A stretch of 32,000 nucleotides of DNA, taken from the NCBI GenBank assembly GCA_003056265.1, contig NBVN01000004.1, positions 390,001 to 422,000 on the forward strand. The letters run 5' to 3'. This DNA comes from Zestosphaera tikiterensis. Lineage in GTDB: Archaea; Thermoproteota; Thermoprotei_A; Sulfolobales; NBVN01. A program made the position numbers and the translations under genes. This document shows positions 5,594 through 22,497 of this stretch, one piece after another. The notes beneath the pieces are model-generated. The model did no database searches. It saw only the letters and a program-made list of their open reading frames with translations, and was not told the DNA's origin. Positions within the stretch are counted from its first letter, which is position 1; each line of letters opens with the position of its first letter.

Positions 5594-5839
5594 ATGAAAA
5601 CGGTATTGAAAGTTGGTAGAAAGGGTATTGTGGTGTTACCTAAGGCCTTTAGGGAAAAAGTCTGTATTGAAGAAGGTGGCAAGGTAGTTTTAGAGATTGT
5701 TGGCAACTCTCTTGTGTTGAAACCTTTAAAACCTTTGGTTGTTGATATAGATCCTGAAGTGCTTCGTAAAGTTATATTGGAAGAGAAAAGAGAATGGGAA
5801 GAGAGGATAGATAGAGTTGCCAGAGAAGTTAGTTCTTGA
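5594..5839 (+). CDS. vapB: AbrB/SpoVT-fold antitoxin (VapB-type)
   Basis: 81 aa. N-terminus KVGRKGIVVLPKAFREKVCIEEGGKVVLEIVGNSLVLKP is a swapped-hairpin AbrB motif. GGAGG lies 10 nt upstream of the ATG. Overlaps the PIN gene by 23 nt. Confidence 0.85.
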   Translation: MKTVLKVGRKGIVVLPKAFREKVCIEEGGKVVLEIVGNSLVLKPLKPLVVDIDPEVLRKVILEEKREWEERIDRVAREVSS

Positions 5840-6191
5840 TACAAGCGTATTAGTGGAATTCATCATCACTAAATCACCATTTAGAAAAACAATTGCTGAA
5901 CTGTTCGCAAAGGCTGAGCGTGGAGATGTAGATCTTTATGTAAACACTGTTACATTAGCTGAGACCTTCTATATCGTGGCCAGAGTCTATAGGATCGCTG
6001 GTATTGATGATCCTAATAAAGAAGCTGAGAATTTTATAACGTGGATTACGTCTAACGTTAACGTAGTGAATATTGATGTACGATTATCGAAGTCCGCTGG
6101 AGAACTTAAAAAGAGGTTGGGGATAGCTCTGCCGGACTGCCTACTTATAGCTTCAGCAAGTGCTATAGGAGATGCCTCTCCCCGCTTTTAA
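5817..6191 (+). CDS. vapC: PIN-domain toxin VapC, C-terminus replaced by repeat sequence (probably disabled)
   Basis: TTG start. LVLDTSVL (acidic 1), TLAETFY (acidic 2) and LPDCLLIASA (acidic 3) are present. The reading frame enters the IS-derived repeat at about 6172 and ends ...GDASPRF*, so the usual last T-x-D motif is absent. Confidence 0.75.
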   Translation: MPEKLVLDTSVLVEFIITKSPFRKTIAELFAKAERGDVDLYVNTVTLAETFYIVARVYRIAGIDDPNKEAENFITWITSNVNVVNIDVRLSKSAGELKKRLGIALPDCLLIASASAIGDASPRF

Positions 6192-6387
6192 GGGCGGGGT
6201 TTCACTGCTGGGTCTTGGGCGATACCCCTCCTTAAGGGGGTTACGGAACACCTCCATCAATCATCGACCTCTAAAGGCCTCAAAACTTCATGTGGGAGGC
6301 ATAGTATGGGTTGTGTGTATGCCTTCTCAAGCAAATCAATCGCTTATAAACCTCCATCCCCGCCCTAAAGAGACGAGGCTTTCAGTT
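6172..6387 (-). mobile_element. 216-bp tnpB-less miniature IS200/IS605-type element (MITE-like) carrying LE and RE/omega-RNA-scaffold-like ends
   Basis: The reverse complement of 6175-6246 matches tnpB 3' end 18327-18400 (73 aligned nt; I count 3 substitutions plus 1 single-C indel). The reverse complement of 6351-6387 matches left-end hairpin 16879-16915 (about 80%). Only about 100 bp lie between them, with no transposase. Confidence 0.8.
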
Positions 6388-8290
6388 GTAAGAACTCTAG
6401 AGACTTGTAAATGAACGCTAATATATCAAGAACTTCTTTAATTTTAACGTCGGGCGTTGATCCTAGATGGCCGCTTTTAAGTTCAGTTCTTAGATACACG
6501 GGTGCCCCCACCTCCTCAAGTTTCGCTACGAATTTAAACGCGTGGGCTGGGTGGACTCTATCGTCGTAAAGGCCTGTGAGTACAATCGTTGGCGGGTACT
6601 TCACGTCAGGCCTTACGTTGTGGTAGGGGGAATACTCAAGCAGAAACTCCCTCTCTCTAGGATCTTCTGGATTACCGTACTCTGTCGTCCAGAGCTTACC
6701 TATGTAGAGTTTATGGAAACGTAGCATATCAATTACGGGGTATCCCACTACAGCAACGTCAAGTAGTTCCGGGCTCTGAGTTAACGTAGCCGCTATTAGC
6801 AAACCGCCGTTGCTTCTGCCCATACCAACGGTTTTATAGCCTAATTTCTTGAAGTGTTTGAGCACCGCTTTAAAGTCTTCGAATACGTTCTGCTTGTTTT
6901 CCCTCATGCCTGCCTTATGCCATAGCTTCCCATACTCCCCACCACCTCTTAAATTAGTTACTACGAAGATCGCGCCATCCTCCAGTAATGGAAGTACCTC
7001 TGGAAAGTACCTAGGTTTTATAGATACGTTAAAACCGCCGTAGCCGTACACTAAAGCGACGCGTGTTTCTTGATTGGAAGTTCCCTGACGTTTAACTACG
7101 AACGAATGTATCTGCGTGCCGTCATATGAAGACACCCATAGATCTTCAACTCTTAACTCACATCCTTCTAGCTTAAAATCTAACACCTTACTTAAGCTCA
7201 GGTCTCCATCCAATACGTAAATACTTGAAGGTACGTTAAAAGACTCATATTTGATTATTAATCTATTATTCAATTTATTGAGTAACGTTACGCTTCCAAC
7301 ACCTCCAACCTCAAGATTCGATATTAACTTACCGTCGGCGTCATAAACGGTTAAAGCGTTTGAACCGTTAACAACGCGATTAACTACGACATAGTTACTC
7401 ATCATTACGGCTTCCTCTATAGGATACAGTCCGAAAACCCCCTCAGCAATTACTTCCTCCACATGAGATCCGTTCCTGGCCTTGACGATCCTCCCTAAAC
7501 CTCTGTCCCCCTCATGAAGGATGTAAGTCCAACCGCTGTAGTGTCCTACCGGGCGTGACATGCTCTCGCCGCCATCAAACACTAAACGCCATTTACTGGG
7601 GTCGTTTAAAGGACCGCTGAGTATCTTAGATTTTAACCAACCATACTGTATGACAACGAAAGCTATGTTCTGGTCGTAGTCGGGAACTACGTTAACCATG
7701 TAGTTAGTTCCTAAACCATCCCCGAAGACTATCTCCTCCTTCCCGCCGATCTCCTTAAGGAATACCCTCTCGGCAGGAGCTTCCACACCGTCGGGAGTTA
7801 ATCCAGACCTGTAGAAAAGCTCGTAGTAGATTTTATCCCTACTTAACCATACGACGTTGGAGATATAGCCTTCAAACCTCTCCACGGTTTCGCGTGTGTT
7901 TAGATCTATGATTACTATCTTACCTAAGTCTGAGCCAGCTAAACTATATCTAACGCCTACCAAACCACCTTCTGGGGAGGGGTAAACCTCATTAATCATG
8001 ACATCCTTGCCTAAATCAACAGCTCTCAAGAGAGTCTCTGACGAGCCGTCGAACCCCACGATAACAACTTCGTATCCTTTATCCCCTCGAACCACAGCAA
8101 ATATACCATCACGCCCAAGCGAAGCGGTAGTTACGTAGGGAACGTTAAAGTATTTAATTACTTTATGCGATAGCTTGCTGGATACCCCCTCTATAAAATT
8201 TTGAAATTTCCTGTTCCTTTCAGTAATCCACTCAACGGTTTTAATGTTTGAAAGATCTTCAAGCCATAAGTAATGATCCTCAGCGCTCAT
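6365..8290 (-). CDS. prolyl oligopeptidase (S9A serine peptidase)
   Basis: 641 aa. N-terminal beta-propeller-type region, catalytic GRSNGGLL (Ser), GLYDDRV (Asp) and SGHLG (His). The last ~7 codons and the stop lie inside the miniature element. Confidence 0.93.
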   Translation of the reverse strand: MSAEDHYLWLEDLSNIKTVEWITERNRKFQNFIEGVSSKLSHKVIKYFNVPYVTTASLGRDGIFAVVRGDKGYEVVIVGFDGSSETLLRAVDLGKDVMINEVYPSPEGGLVGVRYSLAGSDLGKIVIIDLNTRETVERFEGYISNVVWLSRDKIYYELFYRSGLTPDGVEAPAERVFLKEIGGKEEIVFGDGLGTNYMVNVVPDYDQNIAFVVIQYGWLKSKILSGPLNDPSKWRLVFDGGESMSRPVGHYSGWTYILHEGDRGLGRIVKARNGSHVEEVIAEGVFGLYPIEEAVMMSNYVVVNRVVNGSNALTVYDADGKLISNLEVGGVGSVTLLNKLNNRLIIKYESFNVPSSIYVLDGDLSLSKVLDFKLEGCELRVEDLWVSSYDGTQIHSFVVKRQGTSNQETRVALVYGYGGFNVSIKPRYFPEVLPLLEDGAIFVVTNLRGGGEYGKLWHKAGMRENKQNVFEDFKAVLKHFKKLGYKTVGMGRSNGGLLIAATLTQSPELLDVAVVGYPVIDMLRFHKLYIGKLWTTEYGNPEDPREREFLLEYSPYHNVRPDVKYPPTIVLTGLYDDRVHPAHAFKFVAKLEEVGAPVYLRTELKSGHLGSTPDVKIKEVLDILAFIYKSLEFLQLKASSL

Positions 8291-16333: not shown

Positions 16334-16777
16334 TTATAAGAGCTTTCCATACTTAAGTAAGGCGATGGACATATCCAGGAATTTACTGTCATCTATTAAA
16401 AGCTTTAACTCAGTAATAACTTTCTCGACGTCGTAAGCTATCCTAATGAATTTAACGCTTTCTTCATCCACATCCAGTAAAGTAGCGGAAGCTCTGAAGT
16501 CACCGTCTCTGGGTTGACCAACGCTTCCAGGGTTTACTACCTTAAGTTTCTGAAGTGAGCGGTAGAAAGGTATGTGTGTATGTCCTATGAATATGAAGTC
16601 GTAAGGTATGTCTTCACACCCTCCTCTTCTGGCGTTAAGTCTAAACTGCTTCTTAGCACTGAATAAGCTGCATAACTCCTCGTTTTTAAGCCAAGGATAT
16701 GTATAGCCGTATAGTGGAGATTCTAGGTTACAACTGAAAGCCCCGTCATATAACATCTTGGTTAAAGGGTTATCCAT
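16334..16777 (-). pseudogene. C-terminal fragment of a YfcE/MJ0936-type metallophosphoesterase
   Basis: The 147-aa ORF carries IGHTHIPF and NPGSVGQPRDGD (late metallophosphatase motifs). It lacks the N-terminal D-x-H, G-D and G-N-H-D/E motifs. The 5' end abuts IS-related repeat sequence at 16788. Confidence 0.65.
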
Positions 16778-16787
16778 AACCCCAAGT

Positions 16788-16870
16788 CCCCTAGAAGGGA
16801 TAGGGGTAACGGGCTGGAGACCCAGCCTAGGGCTAAACGAAGCGGATGTAACCCTAAACCTCCCCGCCTT
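16788..16870 (+). repeat. remnant resembling the RE/omega-scaffold of a diverged sibling IS element
   Basis: cccctagaagggatagggg...gagacccagcc...aaacctccccgcc parallels ccccttaaggagggg...aagacccagca...aaacccccgcc at 18335-18385, with the same order and orientation. Confidence 0.45.
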
Positions 16871-16917
16871 AGTAACACCGAGAACCCTCGCCTCTTTAAG
16901 GCGGGGATGGATAGGTT

Positions 16918-16935
16918 AAACTTATAAAGCTTTAA
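16918..16935 (+). promoter_or_regulatory. TATA-like box upstream of tnpB
   Basis: aaacttataaagctttaa lies about 35-45 nt upstream of ATG 16965, inside the left end. Confidence 0.35.
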
Positions 16936-16964
16936 ACTTACATAACAGTTAGGTTGGGAACTCT

Positions 16965-18413
16965 ATGGCTGGCCAACAAAAACAGCGGATGTCCCTGGTG
17001 GGGGGAAACCCCACCGTAATGCCAGCCATGGAGGTTCCCAACCTCCTTAAATCAAAGAAAGAAAGTGTTAGGACTGTCAGGCTTAGACTTCTACCAACAA
17101 AACAGCAGGACAAACGCCTACGTAAAATCGCCGGCACATGCTCCAAACTTTGGAACCAAATCAACTATGCTAGGAGAAAAATGTTCTTCGAAGAGAAGAG
17201 GATTAATATAGAGGAAACCTATAAGGAATTCTACGAAAGATATAAGAAACTTGTTGGGAGTGTTACAACACAGCAAGTATTAAATAAGAATAATGAAGCA
17301 TGGAATTCATTCTTTAAACTCTTAAAACTTAAGAAGGAGGGTAAGCTACTGCCCTCCATTAAGAAACCCACACCACCAGGATATTGGAAGGATAAGATCT
17401 TAGGAAAAAGAATTAGAGGAATCATCATCAGAAGCGATAGGTATTACGTAGAGCAAGTCAATAATGGTGAAGGATACATCATCCTTAAAGACTTTAGTGT
17501 GAAGGTTAAATACGTCGGTAGGATTAAGTGGTCCGGTAGGCAGGGCAGGCTTGAAATAAAGTATGAATTTAACAGGTGGTTCGCATACATACCAATAGAA
17601 GTTGGTGTGATGCCTTCGAAGAACAATCCGAGAGGTTATGTTAGGGGTGGGTGTGATATAATTCAGCGAAAGAAGCCCAGAGGGGAGGAGGCGGCATTCA
17701 TTGATATGGGTTTAAACAACTTGTTTGCTGTGATGACTACATGTGGTGATGCTATACTGGTGAAGGGTGGTGTTGTTAAGTCTGAGTATTACTGGTGGAA
17801 GTCCGAGAAGAGAAACGCGCAATCCACTAGAGATTCAATGAGGAATGACAGTCTCGAAGTTTGGAGGAGATTCCACCGTAGGTATTTAAGAGCGTTATTT
17901 AAAAGTAGCGAGAGGTTAAGACACCTCTACAGAACCGCTGTTAGGTTCTTAGCTAAGGAGTTGCATGAGAGGAGTGTTAAGAATGTGTATTTAGGATATC
18001 CCTACATGATCACTCAGGATAACGGTAACGAATACAACACGAACATTTGGTGGTTTAGAAAATTAACTCAATGGTTGCATGACGTGTTAAAAGAGTATGG
18101 TATTGAGTTACTCATAGTATTTGAGGATAATACTAGTAGGGAGTGTTCAATATGCCACGTTATTCACGAAAACGCTAGAGTGCATAGGGGGTTGTACGTA
18201 TGTAGTGTAAGTGGGAAGAAGATAAACGCTGATTTAAATGCCGCTACGAACATCGCTTATAGGGTCGGTTACGTTGTTAGCGTTAAAAAGATTGAGAGTT
18301 TCGTCGTAACTCATAACGGTGTTAAGCCCGTAACCCCCTTAAGGAGGGGTATCGCTCAAGACCCAGCAGTGAAACCCCCGCCCTTCAGAGCGGGGAGAGG
18401 GTCATATCCTTAG
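16965..18413 (+). CDS. tnpB: TnpB (IS605 OrfB-family RuvC-like, RNA-guided-nuclease-type protein)
   Basis: 482 aa. N-terminal RTVRLRLLPTKQQ...LWNQ motif, FIDMGLNN (RuvC-I Asp), NTSRECSIC...C...NADLNAATNIA (zinc finger plus RuvC-III). The true start may be an internal Met (Met9, 19 or 22). Confidence 0.93.
   Translation: MAGQQKQRMSLVGGNPTVMPAMEVPNLLKSKKESVRTVRLRLLPTKQQDKRLRKIAGTCSKLWNQINYARRKMFFEEKRINIEETYKEFYERYKKLVGSVTTQQVLNKNNEAWNSFFKLLKLKKEGKLLPSIKKPTPPGYWKDKILGKRIRGIIIRSDRYYVEQVNNGEGYIILKDFSVKVKYVGRIKWSGRQGRLEIKYEFNRWFAYIPIEVGVMPSKNNPRGYVRGGCDIIQRKKPRGEEAAFIDMGLNNLFAVMTTCGDAILVKGGVVKSEYYWWKSEKRNAQSTRDSMRNDSLEVWRRFHRRYLRALFKSSERLRHLYRTAVRFLAKELHERSVKNVYLGYPYMITQDNGNEYNTNIWWFRKLTQWLHDVLKEYGIELLIVFEDNTSRECSICHVIHENARVHRGLYVCSVSGKKINADLNAATNIAYRVGYVVSVKKIESFVVTHNGVKPVTPLRRGIAQDPAVKPPPFRAGRGSYP
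18327..18412 (+). ncRNA. candidate omega-RNA (reRNA) scaffold overlapping the tnpB 3' end
   Basis: Two stem-loops (cccct-taagg-agggg and ccccgc-ccttcaga-gcgggg) lie in the segment where characterised TnpB elements encode their guide RNA. The segment is conserved in the tnpB-less copy at 6175-6246. The 5' extent is unknown and probably reaches further into tnpB. Confidence 0.4.
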
Positions 18414-18424
18414 CTCAAGACACG

Positions 18425-18727
18425 ATGGAGTCCATTGCTGGATCAGGTGTCGATCCGGAAATTAAGTATAGAATTATTGAGAAACTTAATAGGTTAGGAG
18501 GGATTGAAGTTGGCAACGTCGACGTTAGGAAGGTGGGTTCTTTCTATGTGGTCAGTATAACGGTTTCGCTAGATCCAAACACCACCTTACTTAAAATACA
18601 TAGGCTCCGCAAGAAGATAATAAGCCTTTGCAGGGAGGTTTCAGAGCTGATATACCACGTGGATGTAGTCTTCTTACCTAAGAAGACGTGGGTTAGAAGC
18701 AGGTCTTCAGGTTTTACCGTTAAGTAA
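18425..18727 (+). pseudogene. C-terminal cytoplasmic domain fragment of a cation-diffusion-facilitator (CDF) transporter
   Basis: The 100-aa ORF begins 12 nt after the tnpB stop. ...IIEKLNRLGGIEVGNVDVRKVGSFYVVSITVSLDPNTTLLKIHRLRKKI... matches the CDF C-terminal dimerisation domain pattern. No six-helix membrane domain lies upstream. Confidence 0.6.
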
Positions 18728-21930: not shown

Positions 21931-21953
21931 TTTAAACGTAAAGCTATTTACAA

Positions 21954-21988
21954 CCGAAAGCCTCGCCCTTTAAGGTGGGGAGGAGATC
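21954..21988 (+). repeat. solo copy of the IS-end hairpin (preceded by TTACAAC)
   Basis: ccgaaagcctcgccctttaaggtggggaggagatc aligns with the LE/RE hairpins at 16879, 18369, 6351 and 6175. It starts 24 nt after the DapA-family gene's stop. Confidence 0.7.
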
Positions 21989-22084
21989 AGGCTGGCGGTG
22001 CTATAGAAGCTACGTAATCGTTTATGAATACGTACCTATTTTTAGCTAGGGTTCGTACCTACGTAAGCTTTAATCTGCTTACGT

Positions 22085-22260
22085 AGGTTTTCATCACCCC
22101 TATCCATGCCTTAACCCCCGTTTTTCGAGAGCCTAGCTTCACCACTTAGGCTCCATCATTGCTCCGCTAGACTCCCTCAAGCGAGGGTAGGGCCTCATTG
22201 AGTGGGTTTCATCCTTACCTCCGTCTCCTCATTGGATCGTCCACACACCCTCACTTTACG
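22085..22260. ncRNA. candidate structured non-coding RNA (GC-rich island in an AT-rich gene-free interval), identity and strand unresolved
   Basis: It has no ORF, is markedly more G+C-rich than its flanks, and has several local stems (gagccta..taggctc, ccctc..gaggg, gagggt..accctc). A TATA-like box (cttataaa, 22276-22283) lies about 25 nt from its right edge. Confidence 0.3.
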
Positions 22261-22400
22261 ATAGCACTAACAAAACTTATAAACTTAATTACTGAATGAA
22301 GCACTATCAATAACTATCAACACCTATAAAACTTGAAACTGCTTTGCTAGGCTTATAACCTTACTTCAATTGGTGCTTTTATAGTGTGATTATCTACTCA

Positions 22401-22433
22401 CCTCCTCCTCGTCCTGAAGGGCGAGGGTTTCCC
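22401..22433 (-). repeat. solo copy of the IS-end hairpin, inverted relative to 21954-21988
   Basis: The reverse complement gggaaaccctcgcccttcaggacgaggaggagg aligns with 18369-18403. It carries a compensatory C:G to T:A change in the stem. It lies 65 nt downstream of the sufS stop, in the same orientation as sufS. Confidence 0.65.
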
Positions 22434-22497
22434 TTTTCAGGCGGTTTATCGGTTTGGAGGTGAAGAGTGAGGGAGAGTTTTTAAATCGTTGGGAAGC

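What the first reader, a model, noticed from the sequence alone, without database searches (positions are those of the whole stretch)
6172..6387. tnpB-less miniature IS element that preserves a near-identical copy of the putative omega-RNA scaffold (orphan guide-RNA locus?)
Read on the minus strand, 6246->6175 reproduces the tnpB 3' end 18327-18400. Over 73 aligned nt I count 3 substitutions and one single-C indel, both stems are intact, and two substitutions fall in the terminal loop (ccttcaga to ccttaaaa). 6387->6351 reproduces the left-end hairpin 16879-16915 less well (about 80%). Only about 100 bp of weakly related filler lies between them. In characterised TnpB elements (for example ISDra2) this 3'-terminal/RE segment encodes the guide-RNA scaffold, and the guide is the DNA just outside the RE. 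This locus could therefore still produce a scaffold loadable in trans by TnpB from 16965-18413, with a guide antisense to vapC (6171 downward, ctcctatagcacttgc...). The RE-type end is much better conserved than the LE-type end. That asymmetry would fit selection on the RNA rather than on transposition. The element also rewrites both convergent neighbours: it replaces the vapC C-terminus and supplies the last ~7 codons plus stop of the prolyl oligopeptidase gene.
Basis: partly seen in the sequence, partly recalled or inferred. Interest (0 to 1): 0.75.

Follow-up and report, generated by a model that had tools for sequence, protein, structure and literature searches.

The report
Protein-less relic of a TnpB transposon
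A 216-bp gene-less copy of the two ends of a nearby TnpB insertion sequence sits between two converging genes in a hot-spring archaeon; this is an already described kind of element (a PATE), and this copy is damaged, so it probably no longer makes a working guide RNA.

Summary
On the minus strand, 6172-6247 matches the last 78 nt of the tnpB element at 16877-18405 (local score 132; shuffles 18.6±2.1). 6351-6387 matches its left-end hairpin (44 vs 18.6±2.1). The 103 nt between them match nothing in nine full-length relatives.

The element is a PATE-type, protein-less derivative of an IS200/IS605-family, tnpB-only insertion sequence. The source is Zestosphaera tikiterensis (Desulfurococcales). 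Its ends fit the family: TTAC before the left end, same-orientation subterminal hairpins, no inverted termini and no target duplication.

It keeps the block where third-codon-position identity rises in the family (~18321-18405). That is only positions ~45-120 of a 120-position right-end model (66.9 bits; parent 136.7). It also lacks 2 nt of the family-invariant terminus GGGTCAT.

The flanks were never contiguous. vapC lacks ~30 C-terminal residues, and removing the element leaves the peptidase gene without a nearby stop codon.

The left/right conservation asymmetry is not significant and is the same among full-length copies.

PATEs that make right-end RNAs, and their possible use in trans by TnpB, are already published. 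This is a new member of a known kind. Guide function is untested and I rate it unlikely (~0.15).

The parts
6172..6387 (-). Whole protein-less element (PATE-type derivative of an IS200/IS605-family, tnpB-only IS), 216 bp
   Evidence: Ends match the full-length IS. The boundaries come from where 9-10 copies diverge. No Pfam hit for its 80-aa ORF.
6388..6391 (-). TTAC directly 5' of the left end; presumed target site, and TAM for the cognate TnpB
   Evidence: TTAC precedes the LE in 5 of 11 LE or LE-like junctions; the others are TAAC (window IS and L009), AAAC, TGAC, AGAC and GGAC. The TAM role is inferred from the IS200/IS605 model.
6351..6387 (-). Left end: AACTG-AAAG (6379-6382, presumed DNA guide) plus an imperfect hairpin CCTCGTC/GGCGGGG (6358-6378)
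   Evidence: Score 44 vs shuffles 18.6±2.1. 79.5-86.8% identical to the LEs of four close full-length copies (window IS, L009, L010, L011). The DNA fold is only -2.5 kcal/mol.
6343..6350 (-). TTTATAAG, a TATA-box-like remnant of the tnpB promoter region of the LE
   Evidence: Aligns with the CTTATAAAG conserved upstream of tnpB in full-length copies. Promoter activity is inferred only.
6248..6342 (-). Core with no detectable relation to the IS family
   Evidence: No significant alignment to eight full-length elements (z -1.4 to 1.0).
6172..6247 (-). Right-end module: hairpin 1 (6225-6240), GACCC (6210-6214), GAAAC foot plus hairpin 2 (6180-6203), tail AGAGG--CAT (6172-6179) with a 2-nt deletion
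   Evidence: Covariance model R1 gives 66.9 bits, E~1e-15, with real matches only at positions ~45-120. 91% identical to the window IS. Rfam HgcC is sub-threshold at 13.9 bits.
6156..6171 (-). Flank that would be the 16-nt guide (CTCCTATAGCACTTGC), antisense to vapC codons ~113-118
   Evidence: Position relative to the RE end. Unique in the window. No match in viral contigs for the 20-mer. The guide role is inferred.
5817..6191 (+). vapC (PIN domain) truncated at residue 118; the last 6 codons and the stop come from the element
   Evidence: Pfam PIN. 13 of 15 aligned homologues continue ~30 aa past the junction (AxPLFxxxExEM...LRKxGVxFL). The missing part is not found elsewhere in the window.
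6365..8290 (-). Prolyl oligopeptidase (S9); the last ~7 codons and the stop come from the element's LE. Its transcript runs into the element.
   Evidence: Pfam. Seven homologues end 3-9 aa after FIYKxL or its variants. 100% identical to the Zestosphaera tikiterensis protein B7O98_07635.
16877..18405 (+). Full-length IS of the same family (canonical LE to RE end). tnpB is 16965-18413, and its stop codon lies in the flank.
   Evidence: Pfam OrfB_IS605, Cas12f1-like_TNB and HTH_OrfB_IS605. RuvC D247/E356/D423 and zinc-finger Cys are invariant in 26 homologues. R1 gives 136.7 bits.
18321..18405 (+). Block of the IS where third-codon-position identity rises: the presumed 3' module of the omega-RNA plus the TnpA-recognised RE
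   Evidence: Third-codon-position identity is 0.47-0.58 here against 0.15-0.59 (mostly 0.3-0.5) upstream, where a few other windows reach similar values. Rfam HgcC gives 23.2 bits, E 0.002, at 18296-18418.
22384..22450 (-). Third, more diverged RE-like module without tnpB, downstream of sufS
   Evidence: Rfam HgcC 22.4 bits, E 0.006. R1 13.1 bits. 80% inverted match to 18368-18402.

Best explanation
6172-6387 (minus strand) is a palindrome-associated transposable element (PATE). That is a protein-less relative of the IS200/IS605-family, tnpB-only (IS1341-type) insertion sequence whose full-length copy lies at 16877-18405.

What is shown:
- Its two ends are homologous to the family's left and right ends.
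- The ends have family anatomy: TTAC before the left end, an AAAG/AAAC foot 5' of a subterminal hairpin at each end in the same orientation, no inverted termini and no target duplication.
- Its 95-103-nt core is unrelated to the IS.

What is inferred:
- It, or a precursor, was mobilised in trans by a Y1 TnpA encoded elsewhere and landed 3' of a TTAC.
- A later deletion or recombination between copies removed the 3' ~95 nt of vapC and the peptidase's own stop codon. The element now supplies both stop codons.
- It is transcribed as the 3' UTR of the peptidase mRNA, and possibly also from its own TATA-like box. The RNA would carry the 3' ~76 nt of the family's omega-RNA scaffold followed by vapC-antisense flank.
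- I judge it a decaying relic, not a working guide locus. The 5' ~45 or more nt of the scaffold are missing. The invariant GGGTCAT terminus has lost 2 nt, which damages both the presumed TnpA cleavage motif and the helix that closes the terminal hairpin. The DNA target that the guide would protect (TTAC + CTCCTATAGC...) could never have existed as an empty site.
For: - Homology of both ends, against shuffles.
- Family anatomy and boundaries from nine full-length copies (window, L009-L011, L013-L017).
- The right-end model scores 66.9 bits for this element against 93-141 for full-length copies, and it matches only positions ~45-120.
- The 2-nt deletion lies in a motif that is invariant in all nine full-length copies.
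- The core is unrelated to the IS.
- No transposase or other domain in its ORF.
- vapC is truncated relative to 13 of 15 aligned homologues.
- Removing the element gives the peptidase a 54-codon run-on, whereas homologues stop 3-9 residues after FIYKxL.
- The partner TnpB looks catalytically intact.
- PATEs with exactly these properties are described in archaea: PMC3119063 and PMC4615843.
Against: - Copy number and mobility could not be tested. The source genome was not found in the searchable DNA collections. Without further copies, 'PATE family member' cannot be separated from 'unique local relic'.
- No Y1 TnpA is present in the window.
- The kept block coincides with the family's region of raised third-codon-position identity. 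Outside the variable loop and the terminal deletion it is nearly identical to the family consensus, while the core is unalignable. That pattern would also fit continued selection on the right-end module.
- The minimal scaffold of this TnpB clade is unknown. The protein is only distantly related to any solved TnpB or Cas12f (best E 2.7e-7).
Confidence: 0.75

Rival explanations
1. Functional orphan guide-RNA locus. The element's RNA folds into enough of the omega-RNA scaffold to be loaded in trans by the TnpB encoded at 16965-18413. Its vapC-antisense flank would serve as the guide, for example to re-cut the donor joint if the element is excised and so keep the element in place.
For: - The kept 76 nt are the part of the family's right end with raised third-codon-position identity. 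They are 91% identical to the parent with both hairpin stems intact.
- TnpB has intact RuvC and zinc-finger residues.
- Transcription is very likely, because the peptidase gene reads into the element.
- An archaeal TnpB works with a guide RNA expressed from a separate locus (PMC11043419).
- Meers et al. say PATEs 'often encode omega-RNAs' that would be used in trans.
- A PATE RNA is expressed in Halobacterium.
Against: - Only ~76 of 120 model positions are matched. SisTnpB7 loses activity when the coding-derived part is cut below 113 nt.
- There is a 2-nt deletion at the scaffold-guide junction, inside an invariant motif.
- The TTAC + guide target cannot have existed as an empty site, because the flanks are not contiguous.
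- The guide has no other match in the window or in viral contigs.
- The conservation asymmetry is not specific to this element.
- Covariation support for the RNA structure is weak (2 compensatory cells; 78 of 500 shuffles reach this).
Confidence: 0.15
2. In-situ remnant. A full-length IS once sat here and decayed by internal deletion. The small element never moved as such and has no sister copies.
For: - The flanks show a local rearrangement or deletion.
- Core deletions of IS1341-type elements into terminal-only PATEs are documented (PMC3119063).
- The damaged right-end terminus suggests immobility.
Against: - A single internal deletion would leave IS-derived sequence on both sides of the junction. 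Instead ~95-103 nt of core are unrelated to any of eight full-length elements.
- The ends resemble the family consensus, and L010 for the left end, more than the neighbouring IS.
Confidence: 0.2
3. Not transposon-derived: a generic GC-rich hairpin repeat (terminator or REP-like) that resembles the tnpB 3' end by chance or convergence.
For: - GC-rich hairpins of this type recur in the window (21948-21987, 22384-22450).
- The element lies between convergent genes, where terminators are expected.
Against: - 72 aligned nt with 3 substitutions, scoring 132 against a shuffle maximum of 25.
- The match extends beyond the hairpins into linkers.
- A left-end-type and a right-end-type sequence occur in the correct order and orientation, with TTAC at the left junction.
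Confidence: 0.02

Closest known systems
PATEs (palindrome-associated transposable elements) of haloarchaea, e.g. Haloquadratum walsbyi HqIRS families; HqIRS71 keeps part of the tnpB C-terminal coding region (Dyall-Smith et al. 2011, PMC3119063)
   Same: No inverted termini, near-terminal palindromes at both ends, no target duplication, too short to encode a transposase, ends homologous to IS605/IS1341-type elements, and insertion next to a 4-5-nt targeting sequence.
   Different: The host is a hyperthermophilic member of Desulfurococcales (Thermoproteota) rather than a halophile. Only one copy could be examined. The core is unrelated to the IS, whereas some halophile PATEs are simple fused ends.
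VNG_R0052, a PATE-derived intergenic ncRNA of Halobacterium salinarum, and the sotRNAs at tnpB 3' ends (Gomes-Filho et al. 2015, PMC4615843)
   Same: Left-end sequence fused to a right-end stem-loop without tnpB. The parent right-end hairpin has the UUCA loop motif (CCC-UUCA-GAG) reported there.
   Different: VNG_R0052 is shown to be expressed and has an overexpression phenotype; nothing is known here. In this element the loop has changed from UUCAGA to UUAAAA.
PATE-like elements of Geobacillus stearothermophilus that encode omega-RNAs (Meers et al. 2023, PMC10055086)
   Same: The concept is the same: protein-less IS200/IS605 derivatives carrying the right-end/omega-RNA region, needing TnpA and TnpB in trans.
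   Different: Those are bacterial, the TnpB clades differ, and the elements have intact ends and many copies. Here the terminus is damaged and the scaffold is partial.
Rfam HgcC family RNA (RF00062), GC-rich ncRNAs of Methanocaldococcus
   Same: The 3' half of the HgcC consensus (CccCGcccUUuAgggCGggGAGGAGGUCAG) is almost the same as this family's right end (CCCCGCCCUUCAGAGCGGGGAGAGGGUCAU). Gomes-Filho et al. linked HgcC to the RE-like tetraloop.
   Different: Scores are far below the gathering threshold of 50 bits: 23.2 (IS), 22.4 (22384-22450) and 13.9 (this element). This is resemblance, not membership.
SisTnpB7 reRNA of Sulfolobus islandicus (PMC11043419)
   Same: An archaeal TnpB whose guide RNA spans the tnpB 3' coding end plus the right end, with the guide starting right after the conserved terminal motif. 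It works when the RNA is expressed from a separate locus.
   Different: Its TAM is TTTAA and its terminal motif is TTCAC; here they are TTAC and TCAT. About 150 nt of scaffold are required there, and only ~76 homologous nt are kept here.

Membership tests
PATE (protein-less IS200/IS605-family derivative) | No terminal inverted repeats; palindromes close to both termini, in the same orientation | tested here: met
   The first 30 nt do not match the reverse complement of the last 30 nt at the termini. Hairpins lie at 6358-6378 and 6180-6199, both on the minus strand, each preceded by TGAAA(G/C).
PATE (protein-less IS200/IS605-family derivative) | Ends homologous to those of a full-length IS200/IS605-type element | tested here: met
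   RE score 132 and LE score 44 against shuffles of 18.6±2.1. R1 gives 66.9 bits, E~1e-15.
PATE (protein-less IS200/IS605-family derivative) | Insertion 3' of a short conserved target sequence, without target duplication | tested here: met
   TTAC at 6388-6391. TTAC, or NNAC variants, precede the LE in all 11 junctions compared. The flanks TTAC / CTCC show no duplication.
PATE (protein-less IS200/IS605-family derivative) | Too short to encode, and not encoding, a transposase | tested here: met
   216 bp. Its 80-aa ORF has no Pfam hit and no database homologue.
PATE (protein-less IS200/IS605-family derivative) | Evidence of mobility: several copies, or filled versus empty sites | not testable with these tools
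   The source genome was not found by the genome or metagenome scans. The nearest peptidase orthologue is 50% identical. Rejoining the flanks does not restore intact genes.
PATE (protein-less IS200/IS605-family derivative) | A Y1 (HUH) TnpA available in trans | tested here: inconclusive
   None among the window's ORFs.
MITE in the strict sense | Terminal inverted repeats and target-site duplication | tested here: not met
   No inverted termini and no duplication. 'MITE' applies only in the loose sense of a miniature non-autonomous element.
omega-RNA / reRNA (TnpB guide RNA) | Derived from the tnpB 3' end plus the right end, with the guide read from the adjacent flank | tested here: met
   The kept block corresponds to 18328-18405 and abuts the flank at 6171.
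omega-RNA / reRNA (TnpB guide RNA) | Complete scaffold | tested here: inconclusive
   Only positions ~45-120 of the 120-position family model are really matched. The family's raised third-codon-position identity starts only at ~18321, so the essential part may be short. SisTnpB7, however, needs ~150 nt. The true 5' end in this clade is unknown.
omega-RNA / reRNA (TnpB guide RNA) | Intact scaffold-guide junction (conserved terminal motif) | tested here: not met
   GGGTCAT is invariant in nine full-length copies; here it is GG--CAT.
omega-RNA / reRNA (TnpB guide RNA) | Conserved secondary structure supported by covariation | tested here: inconclusive
   93.4% of cells are paired, but there are only 2 compensatory cells (78 of 500 shuffles reach this). 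Helix 3 never varies.
omega-RNA / reRNA (TnpB guide RNA) | Expressed as a discrete RNA, bound by TnpB, directing TAM-dependent DNA cleavage | not testable with these tools
   No transcriptome or biochemistry is available.
Rfam HgcC (RF00062) | Score at or above the curated gathering threshold (50 bits) | tested here: not met
   13.9 bits for this element, 23.2 for the IS right end and 22.4 for 22384-22450.
TnpB (partner protein, 16965-18413) | OrfB_IS605 RuvC-like domain plus zinc-ribbon TNB domain, with catalytic D-E-D | tested here: met
   Pfam 63.3 and 52.4 bits, above the cut-offs. D247, E356, D423, C394, C397 and C413 are invariant in 26 sequences.

The most novel reading that the evidence does not exclude
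In this deep-branching archaeal TnpB clade the functional guide-RNA scaffold may be only the ~80-nt right-end module. The protein-less element, transcribed as the 3' UTR of the peptidase gene, would then be a working trans-acting guide locus that recruits the TnpB of a different element. That would be the first such case in Thermoproteota. It would mean gene-less PATEs can persist by borrowing both transposase and nuclease.
Probability: 0.12. Interest if true: 0.55.

Novelty: new member of a known kind. Interest (0 to 1): 0.27.

Why it matters
If the element's RNA were shown to load TnpB, it would give an archaeal, hyperthermophilic example of the guide and nuclease being separable between elements. 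Meers et al. proposed this for bacterial PATEs. It would also suggest an unusually short minimal scaffold, which interests people building compact genome editors.

As it stands, the locus mainly documents three things:
1. IS200/IS605 PATEs and right-end-derived (HgcC-like) modules occur in Desulfurococcales.
2. They sit at gene-truncating rearrangement scars; here a vapC toxin gene has lost its C-terminal ~30 residues.
3. Conservation asymmetry between the transposon ends is a family-wide property. It cannot be used alone to argue for RNA-level selection on a miniature copy.

Tried and rejected
1. Copy count and tnpA in the source genome. The 19-mer CAAGACCCAGCAGTGAAAC returned only chance hits in genome contigs and metagenome contigs (checked). 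A degenerate 25-mer and the 20-nt guide found nothing in viral contigs.
2. Finding sister copies through spuriously called ORFs. A protein search with the element's 80-aa ORF gave nothing.
3. Exact-protein look-ups for TnpB, the peptidase and P0121 were not on record. Only SufS was found, on a 4.7-kb Logan contig.
4. Empty-site comparison was impossible, because the next-best peptidase homologue is 50% identical. The in-silico empty site gives an implausible peptidase (+54 aa) and a vapC tail (GGKNSRDL*) unlike its homologues. I therefore rejected 'clean insertion'.
5. TnpB relatives in viral contigs: one irrelevant 27%-identity hit.
6. I suspected the family targets vapC genes because the L009 flank also contains CAGTCCGG. 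I rejected this: the L009 flank is an aminotransferase gene.
7. Defining the omega-RNA 5' end by covariation failed. RNAalifold on 7 sequences gave no compensatory pairs upstream of the right-end block. On 10 sequences covariation is weak.
8. Single-sequence RNA folds of the element and of the IS are only modestly better than shuffles (z -2.3 and -2.2) and differ from each other. They are not informative.
9. Region 22080-22270 shows no structural signal on either strand.
Full report
**Source.** The peptidase gene of the window is 100% identical over 641 aa to B7O98_07635 of a Zestosphaera tikiterensis MAG. That organism belongs to Desulfurococcales, Thermoproteota.

**Neighbouring genes.**
- 5594-5839 is a MazE/AbrB-type antitoxin.
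- 5817-6191 is a PIN-domain vapC.
- 6365-8290 (minus strand) is an S9 prolyl oligopeptidase.
- 16965-18413 is a 482-aa TnpB with OrfB_IS605, Cas12f-like TNB and HTH domains.
- The RuvC residues D247/E356/D423 and the zinc-finger cysteines of this TnpB are invariant across 26 homologues.
- The closest TnpB relatives (80-93% identity) come from hot-spring-type JGI metagenomes. Relatives at 55-60% are from Vulcanisaeta, Caldivirga and Conexivisphaerales.
- Solved TnpB/Cas12f structures are only distant relatives (best E 2.7e-7).

**Observation.** It is confirmed.
- Revcomp(6162-6253) aligns to 18318-18414 with score 132, against 18.6±2.1 for shuffles.
- The left-end (LE) hairpin match scores 44 against 18.6±2.1.
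- The middle ~100 nt match nothing in the window IS or in seven further full-length elements (z -1.4 to +1.0).

**Family anatomy.** I fetched eight further full-length copies (L009-L011, L013-L017) and aligned their ends.
- All nine full-length copies end in GGGTCAT and diverge immediately afterwards.
- The tnpB ORF runs through the whole right end (RE), and its stop codon comes from the flank.
- The LE begins right after TTAC in 5 of 11 LE or LE-like junctions. The others are TAAC (twice), AAAC, TGAC, AGAC and GGAC.
- Each end has a subterminal GC-rich hairpin in the same orientation, preceded by TGAAAG (LE) or TGAAAC (RE).
- There are no inverted termini and no target duplication.
- This is the architecture of IS200/IS605 'peel-and-paste' elements. 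By analogy with IS608 (established knowledge), TTAC is the target site and TAM, and TCAT is the RE cleavage motif.
- None of the loci has an adjacent Y1 tnpA, so the family is IS1341-type (tnpB only).

**What the small element keeps.**
- A covariance model of the last 120 nt of seven full-length copies (R1) scores full-length copies at 93-141 bits and the small element at 66.9 bits.
- The alignment shows real matches only from model position ~45 onward, i.e. CCGUAACCCCC....
- Within that block hairpin 1, the linker, GACCC and the stem of hairpin 2 are intact.

**What it has lost.** The terminal GGGUCAU is GG--CAU.
- This deletion removes the T of TCAT.
- It breaks two of the five pairs of the predicted helix GACCC/GGGUC that encloses hairpin 2. 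That helix is invariant in all nine full-length copies.

**Is the kept block the functional module?**
- Across TnpB genes at 55-60% protein identity, third-codon-position identity is 0.47-0.58 from ~18321 to the RE end. Upstream it ranges 0.15-0.59, mostly 0.3-0.5, and a few other windows reach similar values.
- So the small element keeps the block where this identity rises at the RE. Upstream of ~18321 the RE-proximal region shows no such rise, and conservation there looks like ordinary protein coding.
- Against it, covariation cannot confirm RNA structure. There are 2 compensatory cells, and 78 of 500 shuffles do as well.
- In the one archaeal system with a truncation series (SisTnpB7), activity falls when the coding-derived part is shorter than 113 nt, for a total of ~176 nt including a 38-39-nt RE and the guide (PMC11043419).

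**Rfam.**
- Nothing reaches a gathering threshold in the window.
- Below threshold, the IS right end hits HgcC (RF00062) at 23.2 bits, E 0.002. The small element scores 13.9 bits.
- The HgcC consensus 3' half is nearly the same sequence as this family's right end.
- This ties the family to right-end-derived RNAs long known in archaea (PMC4615843). It is resemblance, not membership.

**Asymmetry argument.**
- The small element is 79.5% (LE) and 91.1% (RE) identical to the window IS. Against L010 it is 86.8% and 88.5%.
- Neither contrast is significant (Fisher p 0.085 and 0.77).
- Full-length copies show the same or a larger gap between themselves, for example 74% vs 89% and 68% vs 87%.
- The window IS and L009 carry a variant LE (ACCGAGAACCC instead of AACTGAAAGCC).
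- The 'C indel' is an extra C unique to the window IS.
- The small element is therefore closer to the family consensus than to its neighbour, and it is not a direct derivative of that copy.

**Flanks.**
- vapC homologues found in the representative library mostly continue ~30 residues beyond residue 118, with the motif AxPLFxxxExEM...LRKxGVxFL. Residue 118 is exactly the junction.
- The missing part is nowhere in the window.
- Deleting 6172-6387 in silico gives vapC ...AIGGKNSRDL* and a peptidase that runs on for 54 extra codons.
- Seven peptidase homologues stop 3-9 residues after the FIYKxL motif or its variants.
- The two flanks were therefore not adjacent before the element arrived. A deletion, or recombination between two copies, is implied.
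- The donor joint 'TTAC + CTCCTATAGCACTTGC' that a guide would protect never existed.
- The 16-mer is unique in the window.
- In situ it is preceded by GCAT and not by TTAC, so self-targeting is not expected. SisTnpB7 likewise does not cut TTCAC-flanked native sites.

**Expression (inferred).**
- The peptidase gene is on the same strand and reads straight into the LE.
- A TATA-like TTTATAAG survives at 6343-6350.
- The first T5 run downstream lies at 6108-6112, ~60 nt past the right end.
- A minus-strand RNA over 6150-6250 is therefore expected whatever its function.

**Prior art.**
- PATEs were defined in Haloquadratum. One of them keeps part of the tnpB C-terminal region, and 'terminal-only' forms arise by core deletion (PMC3119063).
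- A PATE-derived RNA (LE fused to the RE stem-loop) is expressed in Halobacterium. Pyrococcus intergenic repeats resemble tnpB 3' ends (PMC4615843).

**Limits.**
- The genome and metagenome scans did not find the source genome.
- No close relative of the locus exists in the protein database.
- All exact-protein look-ups except SufS failed.
- Copy number, presence of TnpA, empty sites and expression remain untested.

**Verdict.** This is a real element with correct coordinates. It is a PATE-type, protein-less member of an IS200/IS605 (IS1341-type) family, lying at a deletion scar that truncates vapC. It carries the 3' module of the presumed omega-RNA, but with a damaged terminus and without the upstream part. 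Working guide-RNA function is possible but unlikely (~0.15). The kind of element and the trans-guide idea are already known.

Noticed in passing
window 22384-22450 (minus strand): A third right-end-like, HgcC-like module without tnpB lies ~65 nt downstream of the sufS stop. Its hairpin is CCUCGCCC-UUCA-GGACGAGG, which is compensatory relative to the IS hairpin. Its tail is GGAGGAGGTGAG rather than ...TCAT. Scores are Rfam HgcC 22.4 bits and R1 13.1 bits. A Logan contig carrying the identical SufS breaks 20 nt past the stop, as expected at a repeat.
   Followed up: partly
window 21948-21987 (plus strand): There is a left-end-like terminus, TTAC|AACCGAAAGCCTCGCCCTTTAAGGTGGGG, just after the stop of the DHDPS-family gene. 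It is on the opposite strand to the right-end-like module at 22384-22450, so the two are not the ends of one element. The 568-bp intergenic region between them shows no structural signal.
   Followed up: partly
window 16728-16876: Upstream of the canonical left end of the full-length IS there is a second LE start (TTAC|AACTGAAAGCCCCG). About 130 nt of other sequence follow, then a duplicated-looking 5' hairpin arm (CTAAACCTCCCCGCCTTAG|TAAC). At least the last 90 nt are shared with L009, which has a different right flank. The IS therefore seems to travel with an extended or composite left end. This recalls the small repeats that insert into near-terminal palindromes in Haloquadratum.
   Followed up: partly
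window 16334-16777 (minus) and 18425-18727 (plus): Both ORFs flanking the full-length IS look like gene fragments. One has only positions 94-153 of the Metallophos_2 profile. The other has only a sub-threshold ZT_dimer domain (the C-terminal domain of a cation-diffusion transporter). This suggests a rearrangement junction at this copy too.
   Followed up: no
right flanks of 10 copies (window 18406-18415, 6162-6171; L009, L010, L014, L017): (A/T)TAG occurs 5-10 nt after the right-end terminus TCAT in 6 of 10 copies, and ATAG in 5. A post hoc binomial test gives p ~8e-6. The intervening bases are not conserved between near-identical copies, so this looks like a target-site preference or an unrecognised cleavage-site feature. 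It is unexplained.
   Followed up: partly
window 18376-18380 and 18403-18413: The window's tnpB has a unique extra C (CCCCC vs CCCC in all nine other copies) that shifts its last ~12 codons. In the whole family the ORF runs through the right end and takes its stop codon from the flank. The C-terminal ~15 residues are therefore not conserved as protein, although the DNA is.
   Followed up: yes
L009 1619-2015: In a metagenome relative (93% TnpB identity) the same IS interrupts a class I/II aminotransferase gene. The gene caller extended that gene through the antisense of the right end (...DDPLPALKGGVSLLGLERYPSLRGLRA*). The peptide is nearly the same as the one encoded by the small element's spurious ORF at 6172-6414.
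   Followed up: yes
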